DNA of 62,551 nt, filler included, from Diploschistes diacapsis (lineage: Eukaryota), in the NCBI GenBank assembly GCA_023645945.1. It is 21 parts of 21 records of this genome, joined end to end, with 100 filler letters (N's around TTAATTAATTAA, not from the genome) between each part and the next. Parts side by side here need not be neighbours in the genome. Positions count along the whole stretch, not along the records: positions 51,057 to 52,890 come from JALAIB010002570.1; 20 more parts are not named here. The stretch is one strand, 5' to 3'. A program made the position numbers and the translations under genes. Below, in pieces: positions 1,467-62,551 of this stretch (its first letter is position 1; each line of letters begins with the position of its first letter). Below the pieces are notes generated by a model, which was not told the DNA's origin, ran no database searches, and saw only the letters and a list, made by a program, of their open reading frames with translations.

Positions 1467-1681
1467 TAGAACGCCCCTACAGGAATACTACACAACCAGG
1501 GGCTGAGCCTGATCTGGAAGGATCACGTGTAGCTGCAATCTGTAGGCCGAATGGTTCAGATTCGAAAAGGTAAGGAAGGAACTATCTAGGTGGGAGTAGG
1601 GCACAAACAAACAGTCTGGGTGCCAGCCCTACTGCCCTACGGGGTTCAACCCTTGAACCCACAAACGTTCAGGATGTTCCA
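1467..1681 (-). mobile_element. Solo LTR, family A
   Basis: TAGAAC...GTTCCA on the plus strand. TSD GTAAG at 1462-1466 and 1682-1686. Matches six other copies in the window. Confidence 0.92.
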
Positions 1682-3811: not shown

Positions 3812-3911
3812 NNNNNNNNNNNNNNNNNNNNNNNNNNNNNNNNNNNNNNNNNNNNTTAATTAATTAANNNNNNNNNNNNNNNNNNNNNNNNNNNNNNNNN
3901 NNNNNNNNNNN

Positions 3912-11924: not shown

Positions 11925-12141
11925 TGGAACATCCTGAACGTTTGTGGGTTCAAGGGCTGAACCCCCTAGGGCTGTAGGGCTGACCTGGGGAAGTATTTAT
12001 ACCTCGCTACTTCCCATCTAGTTAGTTCTGCACCTTTTCGAATCTGAACCATTCAGCCTACAGATGTCTAGTTACACGTAATCCTTCCGGATCAGGCTCA
12101 GCCCCCGGTAGTGTAGCACTTATTCCTGTAGGGGCGTTCTA
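11925..12141 (+). mobile_element. Solo LTR, family A
   Basis: TGGAAC...GTTCTA. TSD GCTTT at 11920-11924 and 12142-12146. Confidence 0.92.
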
Positions 12142-24200: not shown

Positions 24201-27200
24201 AGAGTAAGAGAGGGAGAAAGCGTGGAAGAGGAACTGGCGTGCGCGGCAGGAAGCCCAAAGCCATTCTCGGCAGCTCTACGTTGCCGGACGATAGTCCGAA
24301 CAAAGTTACTGACACAGGTAGACCGAAACGCAGTGCCGCTCCAGAATTCAACAGCAAGGAAAAGAAGGAAGCCGATTCGATGGGCCGTGGAAGCACTTAC
24401 AGAGCACGCGGTGGAGGAGGAATCTCCATGCTCAACAAGCCGCTGGCAGCGCCGAATGAATCCACGCCGGAAAAGACGCCAGCCAGGAGAGGTCGGCAAC
24501 CAAACAAAGATAAGGGAGCAAAGCGGGGTGCCAAACCTACCGTACTGGCTCCAAACGTTTCGCCAATCAAGAAACCTGGTGTTGCTGAGCCGGCTCCTGT
24601 TCCCGAACCTCCCTTAAACGAAGGTTTCCAGCAGCGCGATCTCGAGACAGCCGAAGTGCTTGCGGGCTTCGGAGGCGCTGTTACCGGATCGCAACAGCAG
24701 CCACCGGTGCCCGTTCCACAGATCACCCAACCGGAGGACCGGCGAGTTGACTCGCAGTCGGAAGCTTCTCATGTGCCATCCGTTGCACCCGTGCAAGCTC
24801 TTGCCACTGCTGAATCGCTCGAAGGACGTCCTCCGCTTGCCCCAGTACAACAGACACTTGCTACCGCTTTGCCGATTCAGCCACAAATATCGCCACCTCA
24901 GTTACCGCCTGAAGTCGTCGTGGCGCAAAGCGTGCCTCAGACACCAGTGCAACAGCCTCAGCAGCAGTCAATGGCCGCAAGTCATACGCAGCCTGGCGTG
25001 GCAATGCAGGCTGCAGCACCTGCACCGGCCAAGCAGAATCAAAGCAGCCGTGCTGCGGGGCAGACTTCTTCTTATTGGAGCGTTCAGGAGCAACAAGATT
25101 TCGAGGCTCTTGTCAAGCACTACGGTCGCGACTGGGAAGCAGTCGGCCGGGAAATGCCTCTGAAGACAGAGACAATGGTAAGCCTGAATGACACTGGTCG
25201 TGGTCCTCGGTTCCCCACTGACGGTCGACAGGTCAAGAACCAGTTCATGCGCCAAGTGCAGAACGGTCGACCGGATCTTGAGGAGTGGGCCAACCAGGCC
25301 GACCGTCATGTTCAGATGCACGGTCAACCAGGAACATTGCTCGATCCTACGCGTTCGGTAAGTAGCACCGGGGCAACCCCCGGTCGACGTCGGGGGCAGA
25401 CGGTCAATGCTTCTCAACGGACGTTGGCGCCAAATCCAGAACAAGTGCAGGCAGAGCCTGTGCAGACCGAGGCCCAAAATGTTGCAATAGCTCCTCAGAT
25501 CTCTCCGCAAGACCGTGGCCATCCGCGACTCGCTATTGCACCGCCACGTCAGCCAATCGCACCCAATGCAACAGCCGCGGTGCAAGCGCTTGTAAGCGAA
25601 CAAGCTGCACCTGTTTCTGCACCTGTTTCGCGTATGCAGCCTCAACCCCAGCCACTTCGACCTGCAAATAGAGACATGGCTCAGACCCAGTCCCAACAAA
25701 TTCAGCTGGCGCCCGCTCAGTCGCAGCAACAGGTGCGAGGGCTTCAGCCGTCACGTTTCGCTTCTGACGTTGCGAACGATAACGCCCCACCTGTGCAGCC
25801 CAGCTCAAAACGGCCGCGCAGTCAAAGTGAACAAGAACTGCTAGATCGTGAGCAGCCTCCCAAAAGGCAAGGAGTGCCGTTTGATGTGTTCAACAACGCT
25901 TTGTCCATGCAACACGAGCAGAAACAACAACAACAGCAGCAGCAGCAGCAGCATCAGCATCAGCAAAGGCCGATCACTAGAGTTGAGCCCCAACCGCCGT
26001 ACGATTACAGAGTCCCGAGACAGCAACAGCAGCCCACGGCACAACAGCAAGCTGTAATTCAATCAAGTATACGCACAGTTTCCAATCCGGAAGATGCCGA
26101 GCGTCTTGGTCGGACTCGTCCCATACAGCCTTCGGTATCTCCTCGTGAATACAGAAATCACTCGAACATTCAACCAAACATACAGCCTCATCCGCCACCA
26201 GCAAATCAGCAGCCGCCATCCCAGACACCAATGCAGGCCGTTATGCAAGCTCGGGCCACGGGAGCCTCGCCCGCACAGCGGACACCGCCAGAAGTCACGC
26301 GTCCAAGCTCAGTTCCGGCCCCTGCTGTTCAACCCCCATTCCGTCCTGCCAGCCAGGCTCCAGCGCGGGTGTCCAACTTGATGTCGTTGTTGAACGACGA
26401 GCCGTCGGAGCCGCAAGCCCGGAAGCCTTCCACTGAACCGAAGCCGCTGCCTCCACCTCCGCCACGTCACAATTCGCCACTAACGCAGGTGCCGATGTAC
26501 CAGACTCCAAGTCAAGCATCACCATACCCTCTTCGTGACATTATGATCGACCCCGTCCGCGAAGCCCATCAGGGTATGAGTAGCCGTGCCTCCTACGCTC
26601 AGCAAGCGTACGGGTCTCCAGCAGAAAGACATCTGAGTTATAGAGATCCCAGCCAACAGCAAGCTTACAACGTCCAGCCTCCGCACCAGCAGCCGCCGGT
26701 ACAACCTCAACATCAACCCCCGCAGCTAAAAGAAACCATAAGCTGGTCCTCGAGCAGAGCGTACTACGCCGACACTATCCGTCCCGTCGAGCCTCCCCGT
26801 CTCTACCAGCCGCCCAACGCTGCCTCTCCACCTCCAGCACCTCACCAGTCAGCACCGAACCCATCCAGTTACCACCCCGCCTCCCGGTCCACCTATCCTA
26901 CCCCACACCAACCTCATCAACAACCACCCACCCAACAGCCGCCGCACAAGCCTCACCAAGACGGCGGTCCCCCTCACCCTCACGGCCCTCACGTCCATAG
27001 TCACTCGCATTCGCACTCTCACGCCCGCGCCTCGTCCTACTCCACCCTCCATCCCAACGCCCCAGGCAAACCGGCCACCGGCCCCGGCCAAGCGCTGGCA
27101 CCCAGCCCGTACTCCACCATCCGTCCGGGTAACTTGCAACAGCCCCTCCAATCCCACCAACCGCCACCAAGTCCGCAGCATCCGAATCCGAGCTATTACG

Positions 27201-27448
27201 CCTCTGCAGGTCCCGGACCAGGGCGAAGTGCGTTTTCAATGGGCCATGAAACTGCTATGAGGGGCGGGCACGAACAGCCTGGACGGGGTGGACCCGGGCC
27301 GGTGGGCAGAGACGTGGTTGGGAGGGATGAGGCATTCGCCGGGGTCCCGAGACGGTACACGCCTACGCAGACTCCGCCGAGCGGAGGGGGGAGGTACGGG
27401 GGTGGTGCAGCGGGGTATGCGCCGCCGGCAAATTATCCGACCGGGTAG
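21245..27448 (+). CDS. SNT1: Snt1/N-CoR-like protein with two SANT/Myb domains (probable 54-nt intron 25178-25231)
   Basis: SANT1 DDFKDEEQEHFKEAYVATPKKWGFIA...DCIRHYYLTK and SANT2 SSYWSVQEQQDFEALVKHYGRDWEAV...TMVKNQF. Arg/Asp-rich N-terminus, Pro/Gln-rich C-terminus with poly-Q near 25920. Confidence 0.85.
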   Translation: MFSRFTPTGDSRYTPRDRDRDRDRSPPRLERRGSNQHGSPIAPRNTDNSYRPDDAPASSANPRDGPRDPPRGPRITHDGGGRGGSYSSRGRGYAARESRDNQFPRRESDRDWQRRDAFDRRSPPPRNRSRTPPGKDYRDTRDPRDLPGRELDMSRITRNVRDGGPMSATSTHSDSPFSIGGFYRGSSFRGRGRGDWDGRGRGRGGLSDDRDPFRARSRSRDRITRDFRDERGRDHERDSSRRDDDKKSEWDRDGDRYRRDPPLRPDSRNSTGSQHASATPSHASAPYQQSKPAGLIAESSRRSSFALPQARPELSRNASTPQPPSSPLTSVQVPMFGAVNPSIVAPTSKPSTAQTSPKEASPTPGRSDSADPTKVAPKAPKAELNAQPPIGPKAALGFQRRAPFPLNSPGRAYDAHYDAVAGQSPSMSRFGGPVTPSSAPLSSAPRIRAFPPWASPEMGSRPIPSEAPTSVHSYQCPDTPSSLTFANTSSRIPTGPKASQPSIRAPMNPRGSKPSTMTWVNPKLQRPSILQPLAQHAARKDDGKTARPSTSGSNREMSKGISRAFAAASSPSLEDATRLKPGFSVTGKDKPEAQVPSEATSPRAASPEDEDENAAEDDEENMDLFDQEDFEEAERQFVKEMDALRSKMVPSPTKHPTLLVLLEELDALASAAEDLENGVLPPKIEEPPTSTRPVSMPTPPNEASSIKKSEEPMQFKLEREESVIDDLPLQGLPYLANGIPTPISDVDFLDERDCEEQLCQQIKHSLAVENETDEELRQEFARLYRNWREEVELYDRERAEIEEAEERRFATPLPEGPAEPATAPSAQGDTSINKRREMYADDQDLQKILDRTKTENDMKTMQQAQDSQERADPTREASIPDMLTASEERLYLFEDVNNRVNAASTLQVFRFIPPSDDFKDEEQEHFKEAYVATPKKWGFIAQAINRAMTDTHDQRGDGEKFRHRDFHDCIRHYYLTKKESLYKNMQSKRGRKRGRGTGVRGRKPKAILGSSTLPDDSPNKVTDTGRPKRSAAPEFNSKEKKEADSMGRGSTYRARGGGGISMLNKPLAAPNESTPEKTPARRGRQPNKDKGAKRGAKPTVLAPNVSPIKKPGVAEPAPVPEPPLNEGFQQRDLETAEVLAGFGGAVTGSQQQPPVPVPQITQPEDRRVDSQSEASHVPSVAPVQALATAESLEGRPPLAPVQQTLATALPIQPQISPPQLPPEVVVAQSVPQTPVQQPQQQSMAASHTQPGVAMQAAAPAPAKQNQSSRAAGQTSSYWSVQEQQDFEALVKHYGRDWEAVGREMPLKTETMVSLNDTGRGPRFPTDGRQVKNQFMRQVQNGRPDLEEWANQADRHVQMHGQPGTLLDPTRSVSSTGATPGRRRGQTVNASQRTLAPNPEQVQAEPVQTEAQNVAIAPQISPQDRGHPRLAIAPPRQPIAPNATAAVQALVSEQAAPVSAPVSRMQPQPQPLRPANRDMAQTQSQQIQLAPAQSQQQVRGLQPSRFASDVANDNAPPVQPSSKRPRSQSEQELLDREQPPKRQGVPFDVFNNALSMQHEQKQQQQQQQQQHQHQQRPITRVEPQPPYDYRVPRQQQQPTAQQQAVIQSSIRTVSNPEDAERLGRTRPIQPSVSPREYRNHSNIQPNIQPHPPPANQQPPSQTPMQAVMQARATGASPAQRTPPEVTRPSSVPAPAVQPPFRPASQAPARVSNLMSLLNDEPSEPQARKPSTEPKPLPPPPPRHNSPLTQVPMYQTPSQASPYPLRDIMIDPVREAHQGMSSRASYAQQAYGSPAERHLSYRDPSQQQAYNVQPPHQQPPVQPQHQPPQLKETISWSSSRAYYADTIRPVEPPRLYQPPNAASPPPAPHQSAPNPSSYHPASRSTYPTPHQPHQQPPTQQPPHKPHQDGGPPHPHGPHVHSHSHSHSHARASSYSTLHPNAPGKPATGPGQALAPSPYSTIRPGNLQQPLQSHQPPPSPQHPNPSYYASAGPGPGRSAFSMGHETAMRGGHEQPGRGGPGPVGRDVVGRDEAFAGVPRRYTPTQTPPSGGGRYGGGAAGYAPPANYPTG

Positions 27449-31642: not shown

Positions 31643-32100
31643 TAAAGGACGCGAGAATTAATAATAGATTAAAATATATTAATATTATCTATCATTATAT
31701 ACGGGATTTAGTTAAACGAGGCCGTATTAATATTAGTTATATATTTATAGATAAAATAATTACCGACAGATTAACGAAATTATTAAATTATATTAAACAC
31801 GACATGTTTATTAAAGGATTTGGATTAATATAAAAGATATTTAACTGAACTAAATGAACATGCCGATGGTTCCGCCCGTGAGGGAGTATTAAGCAGGTAG
31901 ATAGAATATATGGCTGGGAAGTTCAGCTAAACCTTAGGTTCAGGTTCAGTTCAGCTGAACCTACTAGGGTTCCTGTTAATCCTAATCGGGAGTAGTGCAA
32001 GTCTATAGGGCTTAGTGGATCCTATTGGTATAAGAGCTTGCATGTAGACTCTTCCTTCTAGTTAGATCTCTAGATATCTAGACTTCAATACATGCGTTGC
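31643..32100 (+). mobile_element. Ty1/copia 3' end: RNase H remnant, PPT and 3' LTR (family C, from 31887)
   Basis: RIP form of SKHID..YH..RD...ADGLTKPL, then GTGAGGGAG, then TATTAAGCAGG (RIP form of TGTTGAGCAGG). Confidence 0.85.
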
Positions 32101-32765
32101 CCAAAAGTATCGAAACTTCTGTAGGGTATATCAGGACGATATAATGATTTATAGTAAGACCTTGCGGGAACATGTTGATCACCTAACGAAGGTGTTTACA
32201 GCGCTGGATCAGGTCAACATAATGCTGGCGCCAAAGAAGTCTTTCGTGGGATATCCGAGCGTGAAATTGCTGGGACAAAAGCCTCGAATTCCCTCGAACC
32301 TTACAAGCCCTTGAGCAATACATCGGGCTTATTAATTATCTACGGCATTATATCCCTATGTTTTCGATAATCGTGGCACCCCTCGAAGAACGCAAGACCT
32401 TCTTAATTAAGGAATTAAGAAATAAGAACTTAATTAAAGGGATAAAGAAAAAGATTAAAGCTACAAAAGAAGTATTAAGATGCCTTATACCGAAGAAATT
32501 GGTTAGTTTTTACCAGTTATAGATCTTGTTTGGAAGAATCACGATGTTAATTTACTTCGATAAAATTAAACGGTTTTATATCGATATCGACATTATTAAA
32601 ATAAGTATAGAGGTTACGGTATATCACGTAAAATCAAAAAAGAAGCTGAATTATAATCCAAAACAGTATCCGGGTTAAAAGAAGATCTTACCGATCCTGT
32701 TCCTTAGCCGCCGATTAACATAAACAGAAAAACGTTATTAATCGACCGAACTCGAAGTAATTGAA
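32101..32765 (+). mobile_element. Ty3/gypsy RT-RNase H fragment
   Basis: FCRVYQDDIMIYSKTLREHVDHL (YxDD at 32129-32140), GYPSVKLLG, ILFLSRRLT..EKRY..TELEV. Frameshifts and stops. Confidence 0.92.
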
Positions 32766-33493
32766 TGTTACAATCCAAGTAACTAGGTGGTAATCTACTT
32801 GGCACTTCACAGCTGATCGGGCCTAACCCAACCATTCCTTGTATATAGTTCAATCATGGTGACGCTGGTTACGTGATGAGTAGAAAGCCTTGGAAGCTAT
32901 TTTACTTTCTGTGGGTAGAACGAAAGAACGGTAATTCTACCCATCTACTGATCTACTTTATTAGGGAACAGTTGACTATATAAAAACGTCGTTATAACTC
33001 CTATAAATCGAGGCGTGTTCACTTTCATAGACATCCTTAACGATTACTCGGGATCAATCTATATTCGTTACCTCGTGTCTACATTATAGAGATAAAGATC
33101 ATAACACTTAAACACCCTCAAGAATGAATGTCACAGGCAGCACAACTGGGCGATCGCCACCGATGGCTAGATCCGCACGAGCACCAAAGGCAGCAACGCC
33201 ACCAAATAAAACCGACGTCCCGATAACGGACACTACGGAAACCAAAAAAACGACCCCGAAAATGACGATAAATCCGACAATAACAAACCGTATAAAAAAC
33301 CCACTATAAAAATTATAAAACCAATAACGTTCCACGGAAATAAAAAGAAACTAAAATACTAGATACTCCAATTCTTAATATACTTCTACTAAAACCAGCA
33401 CATCATAAACGATTAAAAGAAACGAATAATCTTTACCGTAAGATTCATACGCGACCGCGTATTAATATAAATAAAACTCTATCTCGACATATA
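32766..33493 (+). mobile_element. Gypsy family B 5' LTR (32766-33106, internally deleted) followed by gag start
   Basis: TGTTACAATCC...GATCATAACA, then a KPITFHGNKKKL-type gag motif. The same leader follows the LTR at 58170. Confidence 0.75.
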
Positions 33494-34880: not shown

Positions 34881-35085
34881 TTATCGTATAATTATTATTT
34901 GTTTTAATTATTCGATGTCGTAGTGTTTTCGCCGTTAAAAAGCGCGTTAGCGTAAAAGACGGATTATATTATTCGATTAAATAAATTACGTATAATACGC
35001 TCGAAATAAATCGAATTATTTTTAATAATTTGAAATCGAGCTGTTACGAGTCGAAACGTTTAAATAAGTTTTATAAATATTAAAT

Positions 35086-35441
35086 TAGGCTGGCCGTTTC
35101 GTGCCACGGTCATTAACACGGACACTGTAGCAAAATTTTTTAAAACACGGACATTAACACGGACACTAACACGGATATTACATTTCCGTGAATCCACGAA
35201 CACGGACACCGCAATTAAAAAATTTAAAATACGGACATTAACTCGGACACCGTAACTAAAAAATTTAAAACACGGATATTAACACGGATACTATATTTCC
35301 GTGAATTTATTAACACGGATATTGCACTGTAGTAAAAGCACGAAAACACTTTTTTTTCAATATTTTTAAAATTATCACGTTTATTTCTTACGCTTTTATT
35401 TTTTAAAATTTTTTTTTAAACACGGACACGGACACGGACAC
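35086..35441. mobile_element. Family D element (truncated by contig end)
   Basis: TAGGCTGGCCGTTTCGTGCCACGG terminus and ACACGG array. Confidence 0.85.
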
Positions 35442-35799: not shown

Positions 35800-37389
35800 T
35801 ACGAGCCATTCCACGGAAACTGCCGAATCACGCAATGCTTTAATTGCTATAGCTTTAGGCACATAGCAGCCCGCTGCGGACGATCGAGACACTACGGGTT
35901 TTACGCGGGCACGATTTACGAAACGAACGCTTACTCGATAAAAGAATAACTCTAAAACCACAAATACGTAAATTATAATCATAAAGGTTACCCGTTATAG
36001 TCGAGATATTATTTCGTAAACTAAACGATAACGGACCGCGCTCGTAAGAAATATAAAATAAGACCTAAAACATTCCGAAAATAAACCGTAACGTATTTCC
36101 CGATAATTATTATAAAATATAAAAAACGATTATATTCTTACGTTTAATCTTCTCCTTTTTTTTTAACTTCTTTCATCGCCTTAATTATTTTATTCTATTC
36201 GCTCTACTTTTCGTCCCAGGACGATTTCCGGGACCCGACCGAAAACCCGTTTAAAACCATAACATCAATAAATTTAACGCGTATTAAACCGAAATCTAAT
36301 AAAAGAATGAAAAGAATCGTTATAAAAGATCAAAACGATAAAAATACGAAAAGAACGAGAAATACGGATTCGAAAAAAGAACGAACACGCGCCGACGATA
36401 TAACGATAATAATTTATCGTCGAGGAAATTAATTTATAACGAAACGATTATAAAAATTCGTAAAAGATTCGATTAATATTTAGTTTTTTTAAATAAATAG
36501 TTCGAAAAATCTACGCGAAATAAAAAAAAATAACGGAAATAATATTATTTTAATAATTAATTTATATAAAATATTATTATCTATCAATATAACGTATAAA
36601 AAAATAAAAATAAAAAAATAATATCTTTTTTCGTAAATAAAAAGACGGCGTATTACGATATCGTAATTATTCAAAAATCGTAACGGAATAAAACGCCCCT
36701 ACAGGAATACTACACAACCAGGGACTAAGCCTGATCTGGAAGGATCACGTGTAGCTACAATCTGTAGGCTGAATGGTTCAGATTCAAAAAGGTAAAGAAA
36801 GAACTATCTAGGTGGGAGCAGGGCACATATAAATACTAGGTGCCAGCCCTACCAGCCCTACCAGGGTTCAACCCTTGAACCCACAAACGTTCAGGATGTT
36901 CCACGGAATTTATATTAAAACGATATATATTAATTAAAAAGATAATATATTATTATCGTAACGGGGAACATCCGCGCGCGTATCGCGGTAATAATTAATA
37001 AAAAGATAATAATAAAAATATCAAGAATCGAACGAACAAAACCGGATTAAATAATAATATTAATTTAACACGACGATTCCGTCCCGATCATAATCTATTA
37101 CGTATATAATTAACCCCCGCCGAATCATAATAATACTTCATTCCTTTCTTTAATTCTCGAGTTCTATAACATATTCACGGGTTTATAAATAATAATAGGC
37201 GATTTTAATATCTATTATTTAAACTAATCTGGACCCGGGTTACCGATAATCCACGTCTTAAACCACGTTTTAATTAAAAGGATAAACCGAATAAGCATAC
37301 AGTTACTAACCGTTCCGGAAACGCGGACGTAGAAAAGGAAACTTTCGTTATTAATAATCGACTTAATATAATATTTCGAGGATATATAG
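35800..37389 (+). mobile_element. Tad1-like LINE: ORF1 zinc knuckles and ORF2 APE endonuclease (RIP-degraded)
   Basis: QCFNCYSFRHIAARC (CCHC) at ~35833-35877 followed by further RIP-altered knuckles. YDIVIIQKS*R (DIVAIQEPWR-like) at ~36655 and IIGDFN at ~37195. Confidence 0.85.
36689..36903 (-). mobile_element. Solo LTR, family A, inserted in the LINE endonuclease
   Basis: TSD CGGAA at 36684-36688 and 36904-36908. Confidence 0.92.
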
Positions 37390-39834: not shown

Positions 39835-40205
39835 ACGTAATCAATGTGCACTTTTTAAATAACGTGTTTCACCACTTAACGGCTCACCCCACAAAGCCGC
39901 TCACAATCCCTGCACCTTCGTAAAATGTTATTCTTAACATTTTCACCTTTCGTACAAATAATATTATGTGTGCTTGTAGGGCTCAAAAGCTCGCTTAAAA
40001 CAATCTAGCGCAATTACATTATAATGTAGTGAGCCTCTTTGTGGTGTGATCCGTTAAGTGGTGAAACACCTTATCATAAAAAATGGTCGAAAAACAATAT
40101 TTCGTGAAAAAAACAAAAACAACGGTTAATTTCGATGAATTATTGATTATTTAACATATTTCTTGCCAAAAGTGGCCGGAATCTAGGGGTGGCCGTCAAA
40201 CACGT
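39835..40205. mobile_element. pogo/Fot1-like element end (family E) carrying MITE G
   Basis: Ends GTGGCCGGAATCTAGGGGTGGCCGTCAAACACGT+TA. An uninterrupted version is at 51057-51225. Confidence 0.8.
39862..40071. mobile_element. MITE G (210 bp, Fot1-like TIRs, TA duplication)
   Basis: TA|ACGTGTTTCACCAC...GTGGTGAAACACCT|TA. Inverted second copy at 44089-44296. Confidence 0.88.
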
Positions 40206-41113
40206 TACCGTAAAAACTCCCTTGGGCTTTGAAAGAAAACCAGCCCACAAGTATTAATCCCAAATAACATTCCAAACAGACAATCAAGCCACATTAATAT
40301 CCTACATAAAGTATTGTTCTCACCTGCTCTCCTCATCTTTTTGCGACTGTAGCAATTTTTTTCTGTTTCAAACATGGCTTTTTTGCTATCCGTAATTTTC
40401 GACAGAGTGTCTGTCCGTTGGATGACGAATTGATATATTATTAAAACGGAATTTAATCGCTTAGGATTATTAGACCAGGTTACAAAGCCTAAAGTGAAGA
40501 ATATTCAATTAGGATAACAATTATAAAATAGTCAGTATTGAACCCATGACTTTTAAATGGAAATCGAAGGTCTGTCAACAGTCGTCTTCACCATTCGACC
40601 ATACTTATTGTTCAATATTATAATTATTTAAATTCCTAAGCGTAACCAACGTATAATATTCAAACCTTTATACCTTGAGTAGTGTATTCCTTCTTATTTA
40701 TCTGAATGAACTTCCACGGATACTGCTTGCCATGCGCCAGCACCTTCGGCATCCTTTACGCCGCTACCGCCGCCACCATTTTTACCTATAATTCCTCCAG
40801 ATTGCGCATTCTACATATCTTACCTTTTTGTTACGATCCGCGGTATCGGCCTCGTCACTCCAAGCCACATATTTGGATCTGGAAACAAACCACGGTTAAC
40901 ACAGATTACGTGATTATCAGCCAGATTGTTAATAATCACTTAATTCGTAATAGATCTGCTCGCGATAAATTATCGTCGATAATAAATCTGTCGTAATAAT
41001 TAAATCATCATGTAAAAGCTATCGCTCCGGAGTGTATAAAATTTATTGTAAACGCCAGTAATTTAAACACATTTTTTAATACCAGGTAATCGTTGGCAGC
41101 AGGATCGAATGGT

Positions 41114-49122: not shown

Positions 49123-49254
49123 ATATTAAATTATATTAAAATCGAATTATTATCATGCGAGGTAGTTATTGTTGAGAAAGATCGAATGTAAGATGAAAAT
49201 AATGATTTAAAGTGGCCGAAATCTAGGGGTGGCCAGAATCCCCGTGGAACACGT
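49123..49254 (-). mobile_element. pogo/Fot1 family E 5' terminus
   Basis: Similar to 53750-53890. TIR ends ACACGT|TA. Confidence 0.75.
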
Positions 49255-49420
49255 TAATTTTTATAAAAGATTTATTATATATATTTTAAAATAATAAACC
49301 AATTAATTAATTTATTATAAAATAATAAGAACGAGAAGAAATCCGGATTTCTATCGTAGGACGATCGATAATAAACCGCGTTTAAAAAGTTAAAGATCAA
49401 TTTTACTCGTGTATTTTTAC

Positions 49421-50462
49421 TAGGCTGGCCGTCACTGACACTGACACGGCCGTGTCAGTGTCAATGTTTTAAATTTTTTTACTACGGTGTCCGTGTTTAT
49501 GGATTCACTAAAATGTAATGTCCGTGTCAGTATCCGTGTTTTAGATTTTTTAATTACGGTGTCCGTGTTCGTGGATTTACGAAAATATATTATCCGTATT
49601 AATATCCGTGTTTTAAAAATTTTAATTATCATATCCGTATTCGTGTCCGTATTTTAAAAAAAATTTTAAAGAATAAAAGCGTAAGAAATAAACGTAATAA
49701 TTTTAAAAATATTAAAAAAAAAAAATGTTTTCGTACTTTTATTATAATATAATATCCGTATTAATAGATTTACGGAAATATAATATTCGTATTAATATTC
49801 GTGTTTTAAATTTTTTAATTATAATATCCGTATTAATACTTTATTACATTATAATGTCCGTGTCAGTATCCGTGTTTTAAAAATCTTAATTATAATATCC
49901 GTGTTCGTATTTTTATTGTAACATAATATCCGTGTTAATGTCCGTGGCAAAAAAAAATTTTCTGCGGTATCCGTGTTAGTGTCCGTGCAGAGAAAATTTT
50001 TGCTGCGGTGTCTGTGTCAGTGTCCGTGGCATGAAACGGCCAGCCTAATATATTTCCGTAAAGCTATTAACACGGACACTATATTATAATAAAATAACGA
50101 AAACATTTTTTTTTAATATTTTTAAAATTATTACGCTTATTTCTCACGCTTTTATTTCTTAAAAATTTATTTTTAATACGGACACGGACACGGACGTTAT
50201 ATTATAATAAATACACGGACACGGACACTGGAATTAAAAAATTTAAAACACGGATATTAATACGGATACTATATTTTCGTAAATCCACGAACACGGACAC
50301 CGCAACTAAAAAATCTAAAACACGGATACTAACACGGATATTATATTTCCGTGAATCCACGGACACGGACACCGTAGCAAAAAAATCTAAAACACTAACC
50401 TTGACACTACGGTGTCCGTGTTACTGACACTGGCAGTGTCAGTGTCAGTGACGGCCAGCCTA
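49421..50462. mobile_element. Family D: complete unit 49421-50047 plus inverted partial unit to 50462
   Basis: TAGGCTGGCCGTCAC...GAAACGGCCAGCCTA, then an ACACGG array ending GTGACGGCCAGCCTA. Confidence 0.85.
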
Positions 50463-51056: not shown

Positions 51057-51225
51057 GCCGTAATCAATGTGCACTTTCTAAATATAATAGATAATTGATT
51101 GAAAAGTAATATTTTGAAAAAAAAAAAAAATAACGATTAATTTCGAAGAATTATTGAAGATTAAAACAATTTCTTGGCAAAAGTGGCCGGAATCTGGGGG
51201 TGGCCAGAATCCCCGTAAAACACGT
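51057..51225. mobile_element. pogo/Fot1 family E terminus (further copies 52823-52890, 58399-58689, 60721-60871)
   Basis: Duplicated GTGGCCGGAATC motif in the TIR, ending ACGT|TA. Confidence 0.78.
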
Positions 51226-51272
51226 TACATAAAAACCGCTGACATATAAAAAGTCTTTAAAATAAGCGGCTT

Positions 51273-52539
51273 TAGAACGCCCCTACAGGAATAGGTGCTA
51301 CACTACCGGGGGCTGAGCCTGATCCGGAAGGATTACGTGTAACTGGGCATCTGTAGGCTGAATGGTTCAGATTCGAAAAGGTAAGGAAGGAACTATCTAG
51401 GTGGGAGTAGGGCACAAATAAATAGTCTGGGTGCCAGCCCTACTGCCATACGAGGCTCAACCTTTGAACCCATTAACGTTCAGGATGTTCCACTATCTCC
51501 CTTTCCAAACTGTTGCTATCCCCTAGCAACAAAATAAAACAAAACAAAACCCTTATTCCCTCTTTTTTAGTTCGGATATCTGCTTCTCTTATACCTTAAT
51601 ATCATACTCTTTTCGGCCTAGTCTAGTCCCTTTTTTCTTTATTATCTTCAACCCGTATTACACGTAGACACGTGCCCGATCTTATTCCTTTCAAGTTTCG
51701 GCGTCGTAAATGGATGTTATTAGACCAATAATACTAAAAACAGGCAATTTCTAGGACAAAAAGTAGTAATAGTACCAGTAATCGTGGCAGCAGAAATCGC
51801 TTTCGAAAGATAGCGAAATGAAGGTTTATTTGTTGATAAAATAAAGGTTCGACTGGTTTAAAAACTTGTATAGAACTCCAAGCTCTTTCATCGTAATTGA
51901 TTAGATTAGATCGTGGCTTCTAATTCGTCGATCTATTTATCGTAGGTTCTTCATAGAAGCTTTTCGTCGCTCCAGATGGGTGTGTCGTAAATCTACTACT
52001 ACCAAATTATTCGTTTAGGTAATATCTTATCGCGACAGATAAAATTAGATCTAACACTTCAACTATGGTCATAGCTAAATACTAATTACATCGAGGGTTC
52101 TAATTAATCGATCTTTTACTTGTCGTAAAAGATTTTTCGTTACTCCTAGGTGGGTATGTCGTAAAAGGGTTTTCGTCGTTCCTAAATGTCGTAGACCTTC
52201 ATCTTCAAAAACGCGCCAGCTCGCGTAGGCAGCACCAGATAAGATTAGGTCTAGATTCTTTCTATATATAGGATGAATACTTCAGGTCTTAAGCCAAGCA
52301 GGTAGACCTGAAGGACCTTTTCGAATATAGAACGCCCCTACAGGAATAGGTGCTACATTACCGGGGGCTGAGCCTGATCCGGAAGGATTACGTGTAACTG
52401 GGCATCTGTAGGCTGAATGGTTCAGATTCGAAAAGTTAAGGAAGGAACTATCTAGATAGGTGGATGGCACAAATAAATAGTGCGGGTGCCAGTCCTACGG
52501 GGTTCAATCCTTGAACCCACAAAGGTTCAGGATGTTCCA
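51273..52539 (-). mobile_element. Complete non-coding TRIM-like LTR element, family A (5' LTR 52328-52539, 3' LTR 51273-51492, 835-bp interior)
   Basis: Two direct LTRs. Outer TSD GGCTT at 51268-51272 and 52540-52544. PPT GGAAAGGGAGATAG (minus strand, 51493-51506) abuts the 3' LTR. No long internal ORF. Confidence 0.9.
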
Positions 52540-52990
52540 GGCTTGCTGGTTCGAGCTATTATTAAAAAGGATTATAAAATAAAATAATAATAATTCCGAT
52601 CAACATAATAACGTTTTTCATTATATTTATTATAATAACCTCTCCTAAATTCATATTTATTAACGAAATCTCTTTACAAGAATGATTGTTAAATTTAATT
52701 AATGTATTATATACTTTTCTATCACGTTTACTTCGGAGCTATTATTGAGAAACGCGCGAATCCGATAGTTTTAATCGTAATTACTACTTCCGGATAAATA
52801 GTCGAATATATAATATCTTATAACGAGTTTGACGGGGAAGTGGGCCATCCCCAGAATTGGACCACTTTTGCCAAGAGATATCCTAAATCTNNNNNNNNNN
52901 NNNNNNNNNNNNNNNNNNNNNNNNNNNNNNNNNNTTAATTAATTAANNNNNNNNNNNNNNNNNNNNNNNNNNNNNNNNNNNNNNNNNNNN

Positions 52991-53890
52991 GTGTCCATTT
53001 ATTGTTCATCCTTTATTATTAATACTAAACAGCCAGTTTCGAGACGTTTCGACTAAAATCCAGCTAATATTGATATATAATGCTTTAAAAATAATCATAG
53101 GCGGTAATATCCCGCCAGTAACTAAAATATATTCGATCGCAGTTATTTACTTTTGTTTTCTTTTAATAATCTTTTAATTCGAGTTTGTTCGACTTGAAAC
53201 GAAAGCTTTAAAAAAAGAATTATTATTAATACTAAAACCTAATTCGTTCATATTGTAAATATATTTAGGCGCGTATTGTTTTTTATTATATTAAATTATC
53301 ACTGCATCGAACCACCGTTGTATAGCCTCGTAACTTATCGCATTAAATTTATTCAATTCGATTTATCTCGTTCAGATATTAATAATTTTAAAAAATCGTT
53401 TACGAAATCGCGATATCTAATATTTACCGATAGGTTAAAGATTCGCGATCGTGATCTCTAAATTCGAACCGAATCGAATACGTTCGCGTCGAATCTTTTC
53501 GGTCATATCTATTACCAACGCAAGCGATGCAGAAAAGCCAGTTTATATAAGACGTGTAATCCATCGTACTAATATCTTTTCTTCTAAATTTAAAAGGATT
53601 TAAATCGTTTCGTGGCTATTAGAGCGAGATTAAGCTCCATCGAGTCGATCCATAATAATCGATCGAGATACTTTAAATACGCGGACAGCTTCTCGAATAT
53701 TAATATATTATTATGATTTTAGGGCCTATAAACAGTCGTTGATATTAGATTCTATTAAAATCGAATTATTGCGATGCGAGGTAATCATTATTAAAAAAAA
53801 TCGAATGTAAGATAAAAATAGTGGTTTGAAATGGCCGGAATCTGGGGGTGGCCGGAATCTAGGGGTGGCCGGAATCCCCGTCAAACACGT
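52991..53890 (-). mobile_element. pogo/Fot1 family E 5' end with RIP-degraded transposase N-terminus
   Basis: TIR with three GGCCGGAATC repeats. Minus strand IREAVRVFKVSRS (psq-type HTH) near 53660-53700. Confidence 0.82.
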
Positions 53891-53958
53891 TACCAAAAAG
53901 TAGCGATTTAGGGGTGTAACGGTTAATAATTTAATTAGGTTTTTAAGATTTTATTATA

Positions 53959-57474: not shown

Positions 57475-58396
57475 ATATAAGAACCTTTATTATAATTTCT
57501 TTAAATCCTAATATATTTACTTTTATAAATATTCTTAATTATTATTCGGGATTAATCTATATTCGTTACCTTTATTATTAAAACCTTCTTTTCAGAGACA
57601 GTCTTAGATTTATAATTATTCTATCTTCTTTTCCTGCTTGTACTCTTCTTCTAAACGAGACCAAACTTACCTTGATCAATACCTCGTGTCTACCTTGTAG
57701 AGATAGAGATCATAACAAAGACCTCTAGACTTCAATATATCCATTACGTTGCCAAACCAACTCACTGACGTTCGAGTCACGTGAGCTATTGGAGCGAGCG
57801 ACGCCGCTTCATATGCTTTATAGGAGCAATAAACAGCGCTCCCTTTGTTCCATAAGAGCCACCGTTGGCGTTCTTTATGTTCCGTGAAAGCAAAAAAAAC
57901 TGATATTAGTGTTTTATCGAAAATTTTAATATATAATTCTCGTATTAGGATTGTTTATGTTATATATATTTATTTTTTATAAATATCTTTAATTATTACT
58001 CAAGATCAATTTATATTCGTTATTTTTTATTAATATAAAGCATTTTTTTGAAAATTAATATAGATTTATAATCGATTTTTTTCTTTTTCTGTTTATATTT
58101 TTTTATACGAGATTAAGTTTACTTTAATTAATACCTCGTGTTTATTTTGTAGAGATAAAGATTATAACATTTAAATGTCCTTAAGAATCAATATTTTAAA
58201 TAATATAACCGGGCGATCGTTATCGACGGTTAAATTTATATTATTTTAGGGCTTCGCTACGATTATAACGGATATCGCGGAGGTTAAAGTAGACGACTTC
58301 GGAAGTAACGTATAAGTCGACGAAAGAATTTTAGGGCACTTAATTATAAAGGACTTCAAGCCGGATAAATATTAAGGAAAACGTAAGAAATTAAAG
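57475..58396 (+). mobile_element. Nested LTR fragments: B (57475-57717), C tail (57718-57757), B variant (to 58169) and gag leader
   Basis: Two ...CATAACA/TATAACA ends, family C tail GACCTCTAGACTTCAATATATCCATTACG, and a leader similar to 33107 onward with a PDKY*GKRKKL gag motif. Confidence 0.72.
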
Positions 58397-58789
58397 TAAC
58401 GTGTTTGACGTTGAGTCCGGCCACCCCTAGAATCCGGCCACCTCAAATTACTACCGTTAACATTCTACGGTTTTTAGATATAACCTATTCGTCGCAATTA
58501 AAATCTAATCGATCTAAATCGAATCTATTTTCTTCCTCTTTATCCTCCTCGATTTCAGAAATGTAATAACGTTTTTTACGCGTTATAAATCGTTTCGAAA
58601 CTATCCGACTCGATTTAATCCGAATTATTATTTTAAGAATTTCGTCTATATTAAATATAAAACGATCTTTTAATTCGATTCGTTTACTTNNNNNNNNNNN
58701 NNNNNNNNNNNNNNNNNNNNNNNNNNNNNNNNNTTAATTAATTAANNNNNNNNNNNNNNNNNNNNNNNNNNNNNNNNNNNNNNNNNNNN

Positions 58790-59849: not shown

Positions 59850-60520
59850 TAGGCTGGCCGTTTCGTGCCACGGTCACTGACACGGATACTATAGCAAAAA
59901 TTTTCAAAACACGGATACTAACACGGACTAGGCTGGCCGTTACTGATACTGACACGGCCGTGTCAGTGACACGGATATTGATAATGTCAATATCCGTGTT
60001 TTAGATTTTTTAGCTACGATGTCTGTGTCCGTAGATTTACGGAAGTGCAATATTCGTATTAATATTAATATTTTAAAATTTTTAATTATAATATCCGTGT
60101 TCGTGTTTTTATTATAGTATAATATCCGTGTTAATGTTCGTGTCGAAAAAATTTTTATTGCGATGTCCGTGTCCGTGCATTTATCGAAATATTTTAAATT
60201 ATTTTTTTAATTTTAATAATTTTAGAATTATTACGTTTATTTCTTACGCTTTTATTTTTTTAAAAATTTTTTATTGCGGTGTTTCGGTGGATTTACCGTA
60301 ATATTTCGGTGGATTTACGGAAATATAGTATCCGTGTTAATATTAATATTTTAAAAATTTTAATTATAATGTCCGTGTTCGTGTTTTTATTATAATGTAG
60401 TATTCGTGTTAATGTTCGTATTTTAAAATTTTAGCTATCGTGTCCGTGTTAGTGTCCGTGTTTAAAAAATTTTTGTTATAGTGTCCGTGTCAGTGACCGT
60501 GGCACGAAACGGCCAGCCTA
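59850..60520. mobile_element. Family D composite (short end 59850-59928 plus full unit 59929-60520)
   Basis: Three TAGGCTGGCCGT termini and dense CCGTGT arrays. Confidence 0.85.
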
Positions 60521-60955
60521 TTCTAGATATTTTTAAAAATAACGTCGTATTAGACGCGAAGTTCTTAAAGACGTTTTAAAAACGGACGTAGAATTTCTAA
60601 CGCCGCGACGTCGGCTTTCTNNNNNNNNNNNNNNNNNNNNNNNNNNNNNNNNNNNNNNNNNNNNTTAATTAATTAANNNNNNNNNNNNNNNNNNNNNNNN
60701 NNNNNNNNNNNNNNNNNNNNCTTTTATATAAGATAGATAATTGATTGAAAAGTAATATTTTGAAAAAAAATAAAAATCACGATTAATTTCGAAGAATTAT
60801 TGAAGATTTAAACTATTTCTTTGCAAAAGTGGCCGGAATCTGGGGGTGGCCGGAATCCCCGTGAAACACATTAGATTAATTATGTATTAACTTAACTTTT
60901 TAATAATAAATACGATGTTTAATCTCGAATAAACCGTTAAATATATAATGTTACT

Positions 60956-61830
60956 TGTTTAGCAACGTAATGGATATATTAAAGTCTAGAGGTCTATCTA
61001 GGAGGTTATCCTACTTTGCAGACTTTTATCCTTATAGGATACGCTAAGCCCTATTACCTACACTATTCCTAAACCGGTCTAGTTGAGATTCCAGAATGTT
61101 CAACTGAACTGAATCTCGGAGTTCAGCTGAACTAAACTTCTCTCTAGAACTCAGTCGTATTTCTAATCATACCTTCTATTTATCTACTTAATACTCTCTC
61201 ACAGGCGGAATCGTTCGGTATATTTATGTAGTTCAATTGGATATTGGAACATCCTGAACGTTTGTGGGTTCAAGGGTTGAACCCCGTAGGGCAGTAGGGC
61301 TGACCTGGGAGGTATTTATACCTCGCTACTGCCCACCTAGATAGTTCTTTCTTCACCATTTCGAATCTGAACCATTCAGCCTACAGATGCTTAGTTACAC
61401 GTAATCCTTCCGGATCAGGCTCAGCCCTCGGTAGTGTAGCACCTATTCCTGTAGGGGCGTTCTAGATATCTTTTAAATTAGATCAAGTTCTTTAATAAAG
61501 ATGTCGTGTTTCGAGTAATTTAATGGTTTCGTAAGCCTATTAGTAATCATTTTATCGGTAAAGATATAAAATATTTTAATACGTTCTTGCTTAATAAGAT
61601 CTCGTACGTGATGATAAGTAATATCGACGTATTTTGAACGATCGTTGATCTTTACGTGCTTTATTAAGTCTAGGGAACCAATATTATCATCGAGTAAATT
61701 AATAGTATATAGAAATGATTTTATAAGGTCAAAATAATCAAATATTTTAAAAACTATAAGCATCATAAATCTTATTTAGCGGCGCGAGATAAATTAGTAT
61801 ACTTAGCTTTTATAATTGACGTTAAAATTA
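60956..61830 (-). mobile_element. Ty1/copia 3' end: RNase H remnant, PPT and 3' LTR C (60956-61193)
   Basis: ORF 61473-61766 reads DRSKYVDITYHHVRD...MITNRLTKPL. PPT-like GTGAGAGAG next to the LTR. Confidence 0.87.
61245..61464 (+). mobile_element. Solo LTR, family A, inserted in the copia 3' region
   Basis: TGGAAC...GTTCTA. TSD GATAT at 61240-61244 and 61465-61469. Confidence 0.92.
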
Positions 61831-61860
61831 AAGTTTACTTCTTATTTATGATATTGATTC

Positions 61861-62086
61861 ACCGCAATATTTCGGTAAATTTACGGAAATATAATGTCCG
61901 TATTAATATTAATGTTTTAAAATTTTTAATTATAGTATCCGTGTCCGTGCTTTTATTATAGTGTAATATCCGTGTCAGTATCCGTGTTTTAAAATTTTAG
62001 CTGTCGTGTCCGTGTCAGTGTCCGTGTTTTAAAAATTTTTGCTATAGTGTCCGTGTCAGTGACCGTGGCACGAAACGGCCAGCCTA
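61861..62086. mobile_element. Family D terminus
   Basis: Ends GTGGCACGAAACGGCCAGCCTA. Confidence 0.82.
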
Positions 62087-62308
62087 TTTATAAATTTAAA
62101 ACGTGTTTATTTTTATAAATATTTTTAATTATTACTCGAGATTAATTTATATTCGTTTATTTCTATTATTAGAAAGCCTTCTTTTTAAAAATAGTTTAAG
62201 ATTTATAACTGTTTTACCTTCTTCTCTTACTTGCACTCCTCTTCTAACAGAGACCAAACCTACCTTAACTCTACTCGTGTATACCTTGTATAGATAGAGA
62301 TCATAACA
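62087..62308 (+). mobile_element. LTR family B 3' half
   Basis: Ends GATAGAGATCATAACA. Confidence 0.82.
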
Positions 62309-62441: not shown

Positions 62442-62551
62442 TAGAACGCCCCTACAGGAATAGGTGCTACACTACCGGGGGCTGAGCCTGATCCGGAAGG
62501 ATTACGTGTAACTGGGCATCTGTAGGCTGAATGGTTCAGATTCGAAAAGGT
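62442..62551 (-). mobile_element. LTR family A (cut by window end)
   Basis: Matches 51273-51382 essentially exactly. Confidence 0.9.

What the first reader, a model, noticed from the sequence alone, without database searches (positions are those of the whole stretch)
52315..52435. tRNA-independent self-priming site (Tf1-style) in the TRIM
Seen: one base after the 5' LTR the minus strand reads ATTCGAAAAGGT (52326-52315), with no TGG tRNA-type PBS. It is the exact complement of ACCTTTTCGAAT inside the LTR: 12/12 in the 3' LTR (51371-51382) and in the 11925 solo LTR, and 10 contiguous nt in the 5' LTR (52426-52435). That motif lies roughly 30-40 nt downstream of a TATTTAT box, where the transcript could start. 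Established: Tf1-group elements prime reverse transcription with the first ~11 nt of their own RNA. Inference: a non-coding element that keeps the self-priming fold-back and borrows RT in trans.
Basis: partly seen in the sequence, partly recalled or inferred. Interest (0 to 1): 0.7.

Follow-up and report, generated by a model that had tools for sequence, protein, structure and literature searches.

The report
Self-priming miniature LTR retrotransposon in fungus
A small, gene-less jumping element in a lichen-associated fungus carries, where such elements normally dock a tRNA, 12 letters that pair with its own terminal repeat, so it probably starts its own copying as yeast Tf1 does; this is a tidy example of a known trick.

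Summary
Window 51273-52539 (minus strand) is a real 1267-bp non-coding LTR element. It has 212/220-bp LTRs, a 5-bp target duplication (GGCTT), a polypurine tract abutting the 3' LTR and solo LTRs elsewhere. Paralogous empty sites occur in a public sequencing run.

One base after the 5' LTR lie 12 nt (52326-52315) that are the exact complement of a motif at LTR position 111-122. The match is 12/12 to the 3' LTR and to three other copies, and 10 contiguous nt to its own 5' LTR. Only 1 of 20000 shuffled LTRs gives 12 nt. No TGG-type tRNA site is present.

The motif lies 42 nt downstream of a TATTTAT box in both LTRs, at the border between a variable U3 and a conserved R-U5. A leader RNA starting at the motif folds with the motif paired to the site (probability 0.79-1.0 per pair).

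This meets the published computational criterion for Tf1/sushi-type self-priming, which is common in ascomycete Ty3/gypsy elements. Three things could not be tested: the transcription start, the host tRNA set, and covariation in other full copies. This copy is a mutated relic.

Verdict: probable self-priming non-autonomous element, a new member of a known kind, of modest interest.

The parts
52540..52544 (-). Target-site duplication GGCTT (plus-strand letters), upstream copy for the minus-strand element
   Evidence: It is identical to 51268-51272. A contig of run X2 joins 51269 to 52543 with a single intervening base, which is an empty paralogous site carrying one TSD copy (tables 5 and 5c).
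52328..52539 (-). 5' LTR, 212 nt, reading TGGAAC...GTTCTA on the minus strand
   Evidence: It is a direct repeat of 51273-51492 at 88.6% identity. Its ends are fixed by TSDs.
52473..52479 (-). TATTTAT box in U3 of the 5' LTR
   Evidence: It starts 42 nt upstream of the motif, the same spacing as in the 3' LTR. It is retained in 5 of 6 aligned LTR copies (TGTTTGT in solo 1467) while its flanks vary.
52426..52437 (-). Putative self-primer and start of R in the 5' LTR. It reads AACTTTTCGAAT here, with one transversion from the family form ACCTTTTCGAAT.
   Evidence: Ten contiguous nt are complementary to the PBS. These pair with probability 0.79-1.0 in the leader fold.
52328..52425 (-). Rest of R-U5. 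It holds a conserved hairpin (leader nt 13-25) and nested stems (26-32/95-101, 40-46/80-86, 56-59/74-77, 64-66/70-72).
   Evidence: RNAalifold on 7 copies predicts 26 pairs, 1 with a compensatory change and 5 with one-sided changes that keep the pair. Mean pairwise identity is 0.90 against 0.68 for mid-U3.
52315..52326 (-). Primer-binding site ATTCGAAAAGGT, one base after the LTR
   Evidence: It is the exact complement of the LTR motif. Only 1 of 20000 shuffles reaches 12 nt.
52280..52313 (-). Hairpin just downstream of the PBS (stems CTTCAGGTCT and AGACCTGAAG)
   Evidence: It is predicted in the leader folds. Its function is unknown.
51507..52279 (-). Remainder of the non-coding internal region
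   Evidence: There is no ATG ORF of 30 aa or more and no Pfam match at E up to 1 in the three sense frames read with X at stops. It is multi-copy, with length variants, in runs X1 and X2.
51493..51506 (-). Polypurine tract GGAAAGGGAGATAG, directly abutting the 3' LTR
   Evidence: It was read from the sequence. It fixes the orientation of the element.
51273..51492 (-). 3' LTR, 220 nt, with an intact ACCTTTTCGAAT motif at 51382-51371 and TATTTAT at 51424-51418
51268..51272 (-). Target-site duplication GGCTT, downstream copy
1467..1681 (-). Solo LTR of the same family, TSD GTAAG, motif exact
11925..12141 (+). Solo LTR in the 53% GC gene-bearing contig, TSD AAAGC, motif exact (12032-12043)
36689..36903 (-). 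Solo LTR, TSD CGGAA, motif with one transition (ACCTTTTTGAAT)
61245..61464 (+). Solo LTR, TSD ATATC, motif with one mismatch (ACCATTTCGAAT)
62442..62551 (-). R-U5 part of a further LTR copy, cut by the end of the window, motif exact
   Evidence: It is 100% identical to 51273-51382 over 110 nt.

Best explanation
The region is the primer-binding site of a small non-autonomous LTR retrotransposon (1267 bp, TRIM-like) of a lichen-associated ascomycete. The element most likely initiates reverse transcription by Tf1/sushi-type self-priming.

Proposed steps:
1. Transcription starts in the 5' LTR about 35-42 nt downstream of the TATTTAT box, at or near the A of ACCTTTTCGAAT (inferred).
2. The first 12 nt of the RNA fold back onto the PBS one base beyond U5 (complementarity shown; the fold is predicted).
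3. The RNase H of a reverse transcriptase supplied in trans by an autonomous Ty3/gypsy element cuts behind the duplex (inferred by analogy with Tf1).
4. The released 12-mer is extended through U5 and R.
5. The polypurine tract next to the 3' LTR primes the plus strand (tract shown; its role is inferred).

The copy in the window is an old relic. Its LTRs are 88.6% identical, it carries A/T where other copies have G/C, and the motif in its 5' LTR is mutated. The mechanism therefore applies to the family, not to this copy today.
For: Element anatomy:
- It is a real LTR element. Four of 4 complete solo LTRs have perfect 5-bp TSDs, and the LTR pair shares GGCTT.
- Empty paralogous sites are seen in run X2.
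- The polypurine tract abuts the 3' LTR on the minus strand only.
- It is non-coding.

The complementarity:
- A 12-nt exact complement starts 1 nt after the LTR. One of 20000 shuffles reaches 12 nt and 16 of 20000 reach 10 nt. The next best anywhere in the internal region is 9 nt.
- Complementarity ends sharply at both edges, so this is not an inverted LTR fragment.
- The motif is exact in 4 of the 7 LTR copies and off by one base in the other 3.
- In the runs, none of the 40 listed difference rows (281 further rows not shown) falls in the motif or the PBS, while neighbouring positions (51385, 52289-52306) differ in most contigs. This is weak, indirect evidence.
- A divergent LTR subfamily in X1 and X2 keeps GATTCGAAAAG while its flanks differ (table 7).

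Position and structure:
- TATA-to-motif spacing is identical in both LTRs. Pairwise identity is 0.68 in U3 positions 46-110, 0.92 in the motif and 0.90 in R-U5.
- The leader MFE and partition function pair leader nt 3-12 with the PBS at p = 0.79-1.0.
- The R-U5 consensus fold leaves nt 1-12 unpaired.

Exclusions and context:
- There is no tRNA-type TGG site, no tRNA in the window and no Rfam family in the LTR.
- The element meets the criterion of PMC6317226.
- A degenerate Ty3/gypsy RT and RNase H lies in the same window.
Against: - The transcription start is unknown, and the leader fold presupposes it.
- The whole-leader folding energy is not unusual (z = -1.43; 20 of 200 shuffles fold as well).
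- Only one full-length copy is available, so covariation between PBS and motif is untested.
- The host tRNAs could not be examined.
- The third duplex of the Tf1 'pretzel' is only marginal (duplex energy beaten by 4.2% of shuffles).
- The LTR ends in TA, whereas the fission-yeast self-primers always end in CA (PMC10085805).
- No autonomous partner with the same R-U5 and PBS was found.
- The element's own 5' LTR pairs over 10 nt, not 12.
Confidence: 0.66

Rival explanations
1. The 12-nt complementarity is real and selected, but it serves only as a long-range leader structure, for example for packaging, dimerisation or presenting the initiation site. The primer would be some other RNA.
For: Long-range U5/leader pairings exist in retroelements primed by tRNA (general knowledge). 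The leader has further conserved stems. Fungal GalEa Copia elements also lack a PBS and carry an unexplained conserved hairpin at that spot (PMC5445492, section 10 read).
Against: No other candidate primer site exists. There is no TGG within 0-5 nt, and the GalEa motifs CTGATCAGT and CTAATTAGT are absent. The duplex occupies exactly the place where a primer must anneal, 1 nt from U5.
Confidence: 0.13
2. The site binds an internal or cleaved fragment of a host tRNA. TTCGAAT resembles a T-loop, so priming would be tRNA-dependent, as with the half-tRNA primers of some Copia elements.
For: The 12-mer contains TTCGAAT, the usual T-loop sequence (recalled, not from a call). Half-tRNA priming is documented for some Copia lineages (PMC6317226).
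Against: The base before TTCGAAT is T, where cytosolic tRNAs almost always have G53 (recalled knowledge). No known element uses a primer ending inside the T-loop (recalled). The same 12-mer is present in every copy of the element's own LTR, which a tRNA hypothesis does not require. No tRNA-like signal appears in the region.
Confidence: 0.06
3. The match is a coincidence, helped by the TTCGAA palindrome and the AT-rich composition.
For: TTCGAA is self-complementary, so 6 of the 12 positions come 'free' once both sites contain it.
Against: One of 20000 dinucleotide-preserving shuffles reaches 12 nt and 16 reach 10 nt. The best complement elsewhere in 835 nt is 9 nt. The position, 1 nt after U5 and at the U3/R conservation step, is what the mechanism predicts.
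Confidence: 0.04

Closest known systems
[quoted passage not shown]
   Same: - There is no tRNA-type PBS.
- A short site just after the 5' LTR (12 nt here, 11 nt in Tf1) is complementary to a sequence inside the 5' LTR where the transcript should begin.
- The predicted fold-back has an adjacent duplex between the end of U5 and the sequence just after the self-primer.
- The host is an ascomycete.

Sources: PMC7175516, PMC10085805 and PMC6934838, passages read.
   Different: - There are no gag or pol genes, so the element cannot be placed in that clade by phylogeny and must use a partner's enzymes.
- The LTR ends in TA, not CA.
- The third 'pretzel' duplex is not clearly predicted.
- The transcription start and the RNase H cut have not been shown.
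TRIMs (terminal-repeat retrotransposons in miniature) of plants, bivalves and fungi, such as RLX_TRIM_Sinope of Parastagonospora nodorum
   Same: Short LTRs (212-220 bp), no coding capacity, a PPT, 5-bp TSDs and many solo LTRs. It is multi-copy in RIP-affected ascomycete genomes (PMC6934838 and PMC8549362, passages read).
   Different: [quoted passage not shown] This one has a self-complementary PBS and is 1267 bp with an 835-bp internal region.
Fungal GalEa Copia elements with a Conserved Hairpin Site in place of a PBS
   Same: Both are Pezizomycotina LTR elements with 5-bp TSDs, LTRs of about 235 bp and no tRNA PBS (PMC5445492, section 10 read).
   Different: GalEa has TGT...CA LTRs and the palindromic CTGATCAGT or CTAATTAGT followed by an inverse copy 12-41 bp away. 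The authors found no complement to it in the LTR. Here the site is different and is complementary to the LTR.
Self-priming mini LTR elements noted earlier in this scan in other fungal genomes (e1-7579214, e1-7153820, e1-7569233, e1-7574942)
   Same: They show the same design: non-coding LTR elements of 0.5-1.8 kb with a 10-17-nt PBS complementary to their own LTR. These are AI notes that I did not check.
   Different: No sequence similarity to this family was found (0 windows share words), so they are separate families.

Membership tests
Tf1/sushi-type self-priming LTR retrotransposons | A PBS just downstream of the 5' LTR is complementary to a sequence in the 5' LTR (operationally at least 10 bp, starting 0-5 bp after the LTR; PMC6317226) | tested here: met
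   The match is 12/12 to the 3' LTR and the family form, and 10 contiguous nt to the element's own 5' LTR, at an offset of 1 nt. One of 20000 shuffles reaches 12 nt.
Tf1/sushi-type self-priming LTR retrotransposons | The complementary sequence is the very 5' end of the element's mRNA | not testable with these tools
   No RNA run holds the sequence. Indirect evidence only: TATTTAT lies 42 nt upstream in both LTRs, and there is a conservation step at the motif.
Tf1/sushi-type self-priming LTR retrotransposons | No PBS complementary to a tRNA 3' end | tested here: met
   There is no TGG within 30 nt after the LTR. The host tRNA set itself could not be examined.
Tf1/sushi-type self-priming LTR retrotransposons | A three-duplex 'pretzel' leader: the self-primer/PBS duplex plus two duplexes between PBS-adjacent and LTR sequences (PMC10085805) | tested here: inconclusive
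   The central duplex is predicted at p = 0.79-1.0. A 4-bp GAAC/GUUC duplex between R and the end of U5 appears in the MFE. The duplex between PBS-downstream sequence and U5 is only marginal, beaten by 4.2% of 500 shuffles.
Tf1/sushi-type self-priming LTR retrotransposons | Ty3/gypsy gag-pol with a chromodomain integrase (clade membership) | tested here: not met
   There is no ORF of 30 aa or more and no Pfam domain in the element. It can only be a non-autonomous dependant, not a clade member.
Tf1/sushi-type self-priming LTR retrotransposons | The 5' LTR ends in CA (always so in the seven fission-yeast elements, PMC10085805) | tested here: not met
   All 7 copies end in TA (GTTCTA in six, GTTTTA in one) by TSD-defined boundaries.
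Tf1/sushi-type self-priming LTR retrotransposons | RNase H cleavage behind the self-primer generates the primer | not testable with these tools
   This needs biochemistry or cDNA mapping.
[quoted passage not shown] | Two direct terminal repeats of 100-250 bp flanking a short non-coding internal domain, with a TSD | tested here: met
   LTRs are 212 and 220 bp at 88.6% identity, the TSD is GGCTT, and there are no ORFs.
[quoted passage not shown] | The internal domain ends with a polypurine tract | tested here: met
   GGAAAGGGAGATAG at 51506-51493 abuts the 3' LTR.
[quoted passage not shown] | The internal domain starts with a PBS complementary to a tRNA (PMC6934838) | tested here: not met
   There is no TGG-type site; the site is complementary to the element's own LTR.
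[quoted passage not shown] | Total length under 1000 bp (definition quoted in PMC6934838) | tested here: not met
   The element is 1267 bp. It would still count as a TRIM under looser size limits (recalled, not from a call).
Fungal GalEa Copia 'Conserved Hairpin Site' | CTGATCAGT or CTAATTAGT directly after a TGT...CA LTR, with an inverse copy 12-41 bp downstream | tested here: not met
   The sequence after the LTR is T ATTCGAAAAGGT CC..., and the LTR reads TGG...TA.

The most novel reading that the evidence does not exclude
The conserved 110-nt R-U5 block with its self-primer may be a portable 'initiation cassette' shared by several otherwise unrelated LTR families of lichen-forming fungi. 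These could be autonomous and non-autonomous families with different U3 regions and bodies. Under this reading, non-coding elements would gain mobility by keeping or capturing the cassette that one self-priming chromovirus's RT and RNase H recognises.

Three observations hint at this:
- Summed contig depth in the bins holding the conserved R-U5 core exceeds that of most U3 and internal bins several-fold to hundreds-fold in the two runs (table 2).
- A divergent LTR subfamily retains GATTCGAAAAG (table 7).
- U3 varies between copies while R-U5 stays constant.
Probability: 0.2. Interest if true: 0.45.

Novelty: new member of a known kind. Interest (0 to 1): 0.3.

Why it matters
It shows that the tRNA-independent self-priming design of Tf1-like elements is also carried by gene-less parasites of those elements, here in a lichen-associated ascomycete. 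TE annotation pipelines that require a tRNA-type PBS would mislabel such elements.

If the family is or was active, it offers a very small natural substrate: about 125 nt of leader plus a PPT and LTRs. That substrate could be used to dissect what a self-priming RT and RNase H recognises.

In the literature I could search, fungal TRIMs are described without their priming mode. Two searches turned up no paper describing a self-priming TRIM: one of the 3 papers from one search was read in passages and makes no such claim, the other two were seen only as listings, and one search returned none. Four similar cases were already noted by this scan in other fungi, so the phenomenon is probably common rather than exceptional.

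Tried and rejected
Searches for more copies or data:
- Whole genome: none is held.
- RNA evidence: no RNA holder is listed for the contig, so the start could not be mapped.
- More copies: a metagenome-contig scan with an invariant 18-mer gave 6 loci. One search's blastn aligned 5 of them over only the 19-20-nt match itself and gave no row for L003, so none is a relative.
- Two genome-contig scans and one viral-contig scan with 26-nt conserved patterns gave 0 hits.
- Earlier notes by place and by sequence gave nothing.
- Runs X3 and X4 laid 1 and 0 contigs on the contig.

Annotation scans:
- Rfam at gathering thresholds over the whole window gave 0 hits. At E up to 10 over the contig there was only one meaningless lncRNA hit at E 4.8.
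- The bacterial promoter/terminator scan was uninformative for a fungus.
- The tandem-repeat finder found only two 5-nt microsatellites.
- A six-frame Pfam scan of ten contigs failed twice. I then ran it only on contig 31643-33493 and on the element's internal region. The other AT-rich contigs were not scanned for a partner element.

Readings rejected:
- Plus-strand orientation: there is no purine tract before 52328 and no PBS-like site after 51492.
- An inverted LTR fragment as the source of the complementarity: similarity stops after exactly 12 nt.
- A GalEa conserved hairpin site: the motifs are absent.

Papers not held: the primary Tf1 papers. The Tf1 details therefore come from passages in later papers.

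Full report
**Setting**

The window is not one molecule. It is 21 contigs joined by N44-TTAATTAATTAA-N44 linkers. Twenty are 1.83-1.86 kb and one is 23.7 kb, with GC content from 29% to 64%. ORFs of the 23.7-kb contig match the Pfam families DUF3074 and DUF6536, which I recall as fungal families (the taxon range is not from a call). The only public runs holding the finding's contig (51057-52890) are labelled lichen metagenome (X1, 42% of sampled words) and a coded organism A (X2, 9%). The AT-rich contigs are mosaics of repeats. No whole genome is held.

**The element**

A unit of about 220 bp occurs seven times in the window. These are 1467-1681, 11925-12141, 36689-36903, 51273-51492, 52328-52539, 61245-61464, and 62442 to the end of the window.

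Alignment with flanks and a script show two things:
- Each of the 4 complete isolated copies is flanked by a perfect 5-bp duplication: GTAAG, AAAGC, CGGAA and ATATC.
- The two copies in the finding's contig do not have their own duplications, but together they are flanked by GGCTT (51268-51272 and 52540-52544).

That is the signature of solo LTRs plus one complete LTR-internal-LTR element of 1267 bp.

Laying contigs of the runs on the stretch adds three observations:
- The internal region is also multi-copy, with length variants.
- In the listed rows for the internal region this copy mostly has A or T where most others have G or C. I read this as RIP-like decay.
- X2 holds contigs that join 51269/51272 to 52543/52552. 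These are copies of the surrounding repeat without the element, so they are empty sites.

On the minus strand the LTR reads TGGAAC...GTTCTA. A purine tract, GGAAAGGGAGATAG (51506-51493), directly abuts the 3' LTR. The plus-strand reading offers neither a purine tract nor any PBS candidate. The element has no ATG ORF of 30 aa or more, and the internal region has no Pfam match in its three sense frames when read with X at stops.

**The observation**

One base after the 5' LTR the minus strand reads ATTCGAAAAGGT (52326-52315). Its exact complement, ACCTTTTCGAAT, is at position 111-122 of the 220-nt 3' LTR (51382-51371). It is also present in the copies at 1560, 12032 and 62540. The copies at 36782, 61355 and the element's own 5' LTR (52437-52426, AACTTTTCGAAT) each differ by one base.

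The window holds 8 matches with up to one mismatch, against 0.71 expected. Seven are this LTR position and the eighth is the PBS.

Shuffling the LTR 20000 times while preserving dinucleotides gave a complement of at least 12 nt starting 0-5 nt after the LTR once, and of at least 10 nt 16 times. Sliding along the real internal region gave nothing longer than 9 nt elsewhere. The pairing stops exactly at both ends of the 12-mer, so it is not a piece of inverted LTR.

No TGG lies within 30 nt of the LTR. The first TGG (52296-52294) exists only because of a change private to this copy. ARAGORN and Rfam find nothing tRNA-like in the window or the contig.

**Is the motif where the RNA should start?**

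This cannot be measured here, because no RNA run is listed. Indirect evidence is consistent with it:
- A TATTTAT box starts 42 nt upstream of the motif in both LTRs. It is kept, at 31-35 nt from its last base, in the two solo LTRs whose surrounding U3 is otherwise different.
- Mean pairwise identity among six LTR copies is 0.68 for positions 46-110, 0.92 for the motif and 0.90 from there to the LTR end. The motif therefore sits at the step from variable U3 to conserved R-U5.
- The base before the motif's first A is T.

**Predicted structure**

A leader starting at the motif in the native 5' LTR folds with nt 3-12 paired to the PBS (MFE). Each of these 10 pairs has probability 0.79-1.0 in the ensemble. 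With the unmutated 3' LTR form the 12-bp duplex is -14.4 kcal/mol, against -11.0 for the 5' LTR form.

The R-U5 consensus fold of seven copies leaves nt 1-12 single-stranded. It predicts 26 pairs in a hairpin and nested stems. One pair changes on both sides (G-C to A-U in two related copies), five one-sided changes keep a pair, and one cell is broken. With seven related sequences this is only mild support for the structure.

The overall leader energy is not exceptional (z = -1.43).

Tf1 needs a three-duplex 'pretzel' (PMC10085805, passages). Of those three duplexes:
- the central one is clear;
- a short one between the end of U5 and the sequence after the primer is predicted (GAAC/GUUC);
- the third, between PBS-downstream sequence and U5, is marginal (4.2% of 500 shuffles do as well).

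**What is known**

[quoted passage not shown] The mechanism is shared by the Tf1/sushi chromoviruses (PMC10085805; PMC4600332). [quoted passage not shown]

A large plant survey predicts self-priming from at least 10 bp of complementarity starting 0-5 bp after the 5' LTR (PMC6317226, methods passage). This element meets that rule.

TRIMs are defined with a tRNA-type PBS (PMC6934838). They are abundant in ascomycetes such as Parastagonospora nodorum, where their priming mode is not discussed (PMC8549362, passages).

My searches for self-priming together with TRIM/non-autonomous (3 papers; the one read in passages, makes no such claim, the other two were seen only as listings) and for 'self-primer' with 'non-autonomous' (0 papers) found no description of a self-priming TRIM. 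The library lacks most subscription journals.

The fungal GalEa 'conserved hairpin site' is a different motif and, according to its authors, has no complement in the LTR (PMC5445492, section 10).

Four earlier notes of this scan describe the same design in other fungal genomes. I did not check them, and they share no sequence with this family.

**Verdict**

The finding is real and far beyond chance.

- A degenerate Ty3/gypsy RT and RNase H fragment is in the window (31643-33493). Nothing links it to this family.
- Differences from the fission-yeast type elements are the missing genes, the TA rather than CA LTR end, and the unclear third duplex.
- The copy itself is a relic. Its LTRs are 88.6% identical, and the motif in its 5' LTR is mutated.
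- Confidence in self-priming is about two in three. The remaining probability is split between a structural role with another primer, an unusual tRNA fragment, and chance.
- It is a new member of a known kind and of modest interest.

Noticed in passing
whole window; linkers at 1858-1957, 3812-3911 ... 60621-60720: The window is 21 contigs joined by N44-TTAATTAATTAA-N44 linkers, roughly in order of falling length, with one 23.7-kb contig in between. GC ranges from 29% to 64%, so features must not be read across linkers and the contigs may come from more than one organism.
   Followed up: partly
51158-51227 and 52821-52890; also 49209-49256, 53829-53899, 58396-58441, 60722-60879, 40072-40217: The LTR element sits inside another repeat with 70-nt terminal inverted repeats that are 76% complementary (GTGGCCGGAATCTGGGGGTGGCCAGAATCCCCGT...). 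It looks like a MITE. It recurs in several contigs, often at contig ends, and has the highest summed depth in runs X1 and X2.
   Followed up: partly
31643-33493 (+): This is a degenerate Ty3/gypsy pol fragment with many stops. RVT_1 matches at E 1.8e-07 in one frame, and RT_RNaseH_2 at E 1.5e-04 in the next. It is a possible relative of the enzyme donor, but no link to the element is shown.
   Followed up: partly
table 7: loose ends at 51357 and 52412: A divergent LTR subfamily in runs X1 and X2 reads TAAAAGGTCTCGATTCGAAAAG(T/C)T... after the shared U5. It keeps the core GATTCGAAAAG, but the base at position 2 of the motif differs (A or G instead of C on the RNA strand). Whether its PBS changes in step is unknown.
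   Followed up: no
11925-12141 (+): A solo LTR lies in the gene-bearing 53% GC contig, oriented so that its putative promoter points towards the DUF6536 ORF at 12920-13648, about 0.8 kb downstream.
   Followed up: no
49431-50428: This is a large imperfect palindrome (232-nt arms, 84% complementary) built from 72-nt tandem units rich in ACGGACACGG. Related units occur in contigs at 5515-5765, 35061-35439, 59927-60538 and 61856-62109.
   Followed up: no
51747-52201 (internal region): Contigs of X1 and X2 skip or replace 30-182 nt blocks here, so family members differ by internal deletions or repeat-number changes. Short TCGTAAA/TTCGTCG-like words recur.
   Followed up: no
21245-27448 (+): A 2067-aa uninterrupted ORF whose only match is a Myb-like DNA-binding domain at residues 1277-1312.
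   Followed up: no
LTR ends, all seven copies: The LTRs end TG...TA, not TG...CA. The terminal inverted repeat is TGGAAC/GTTCTA (5 of 6). One CpA-to-TpA change from a perfect TGGAAC/GTTCCA would explain this, and it is shared by every copy.
   Followed up: partly
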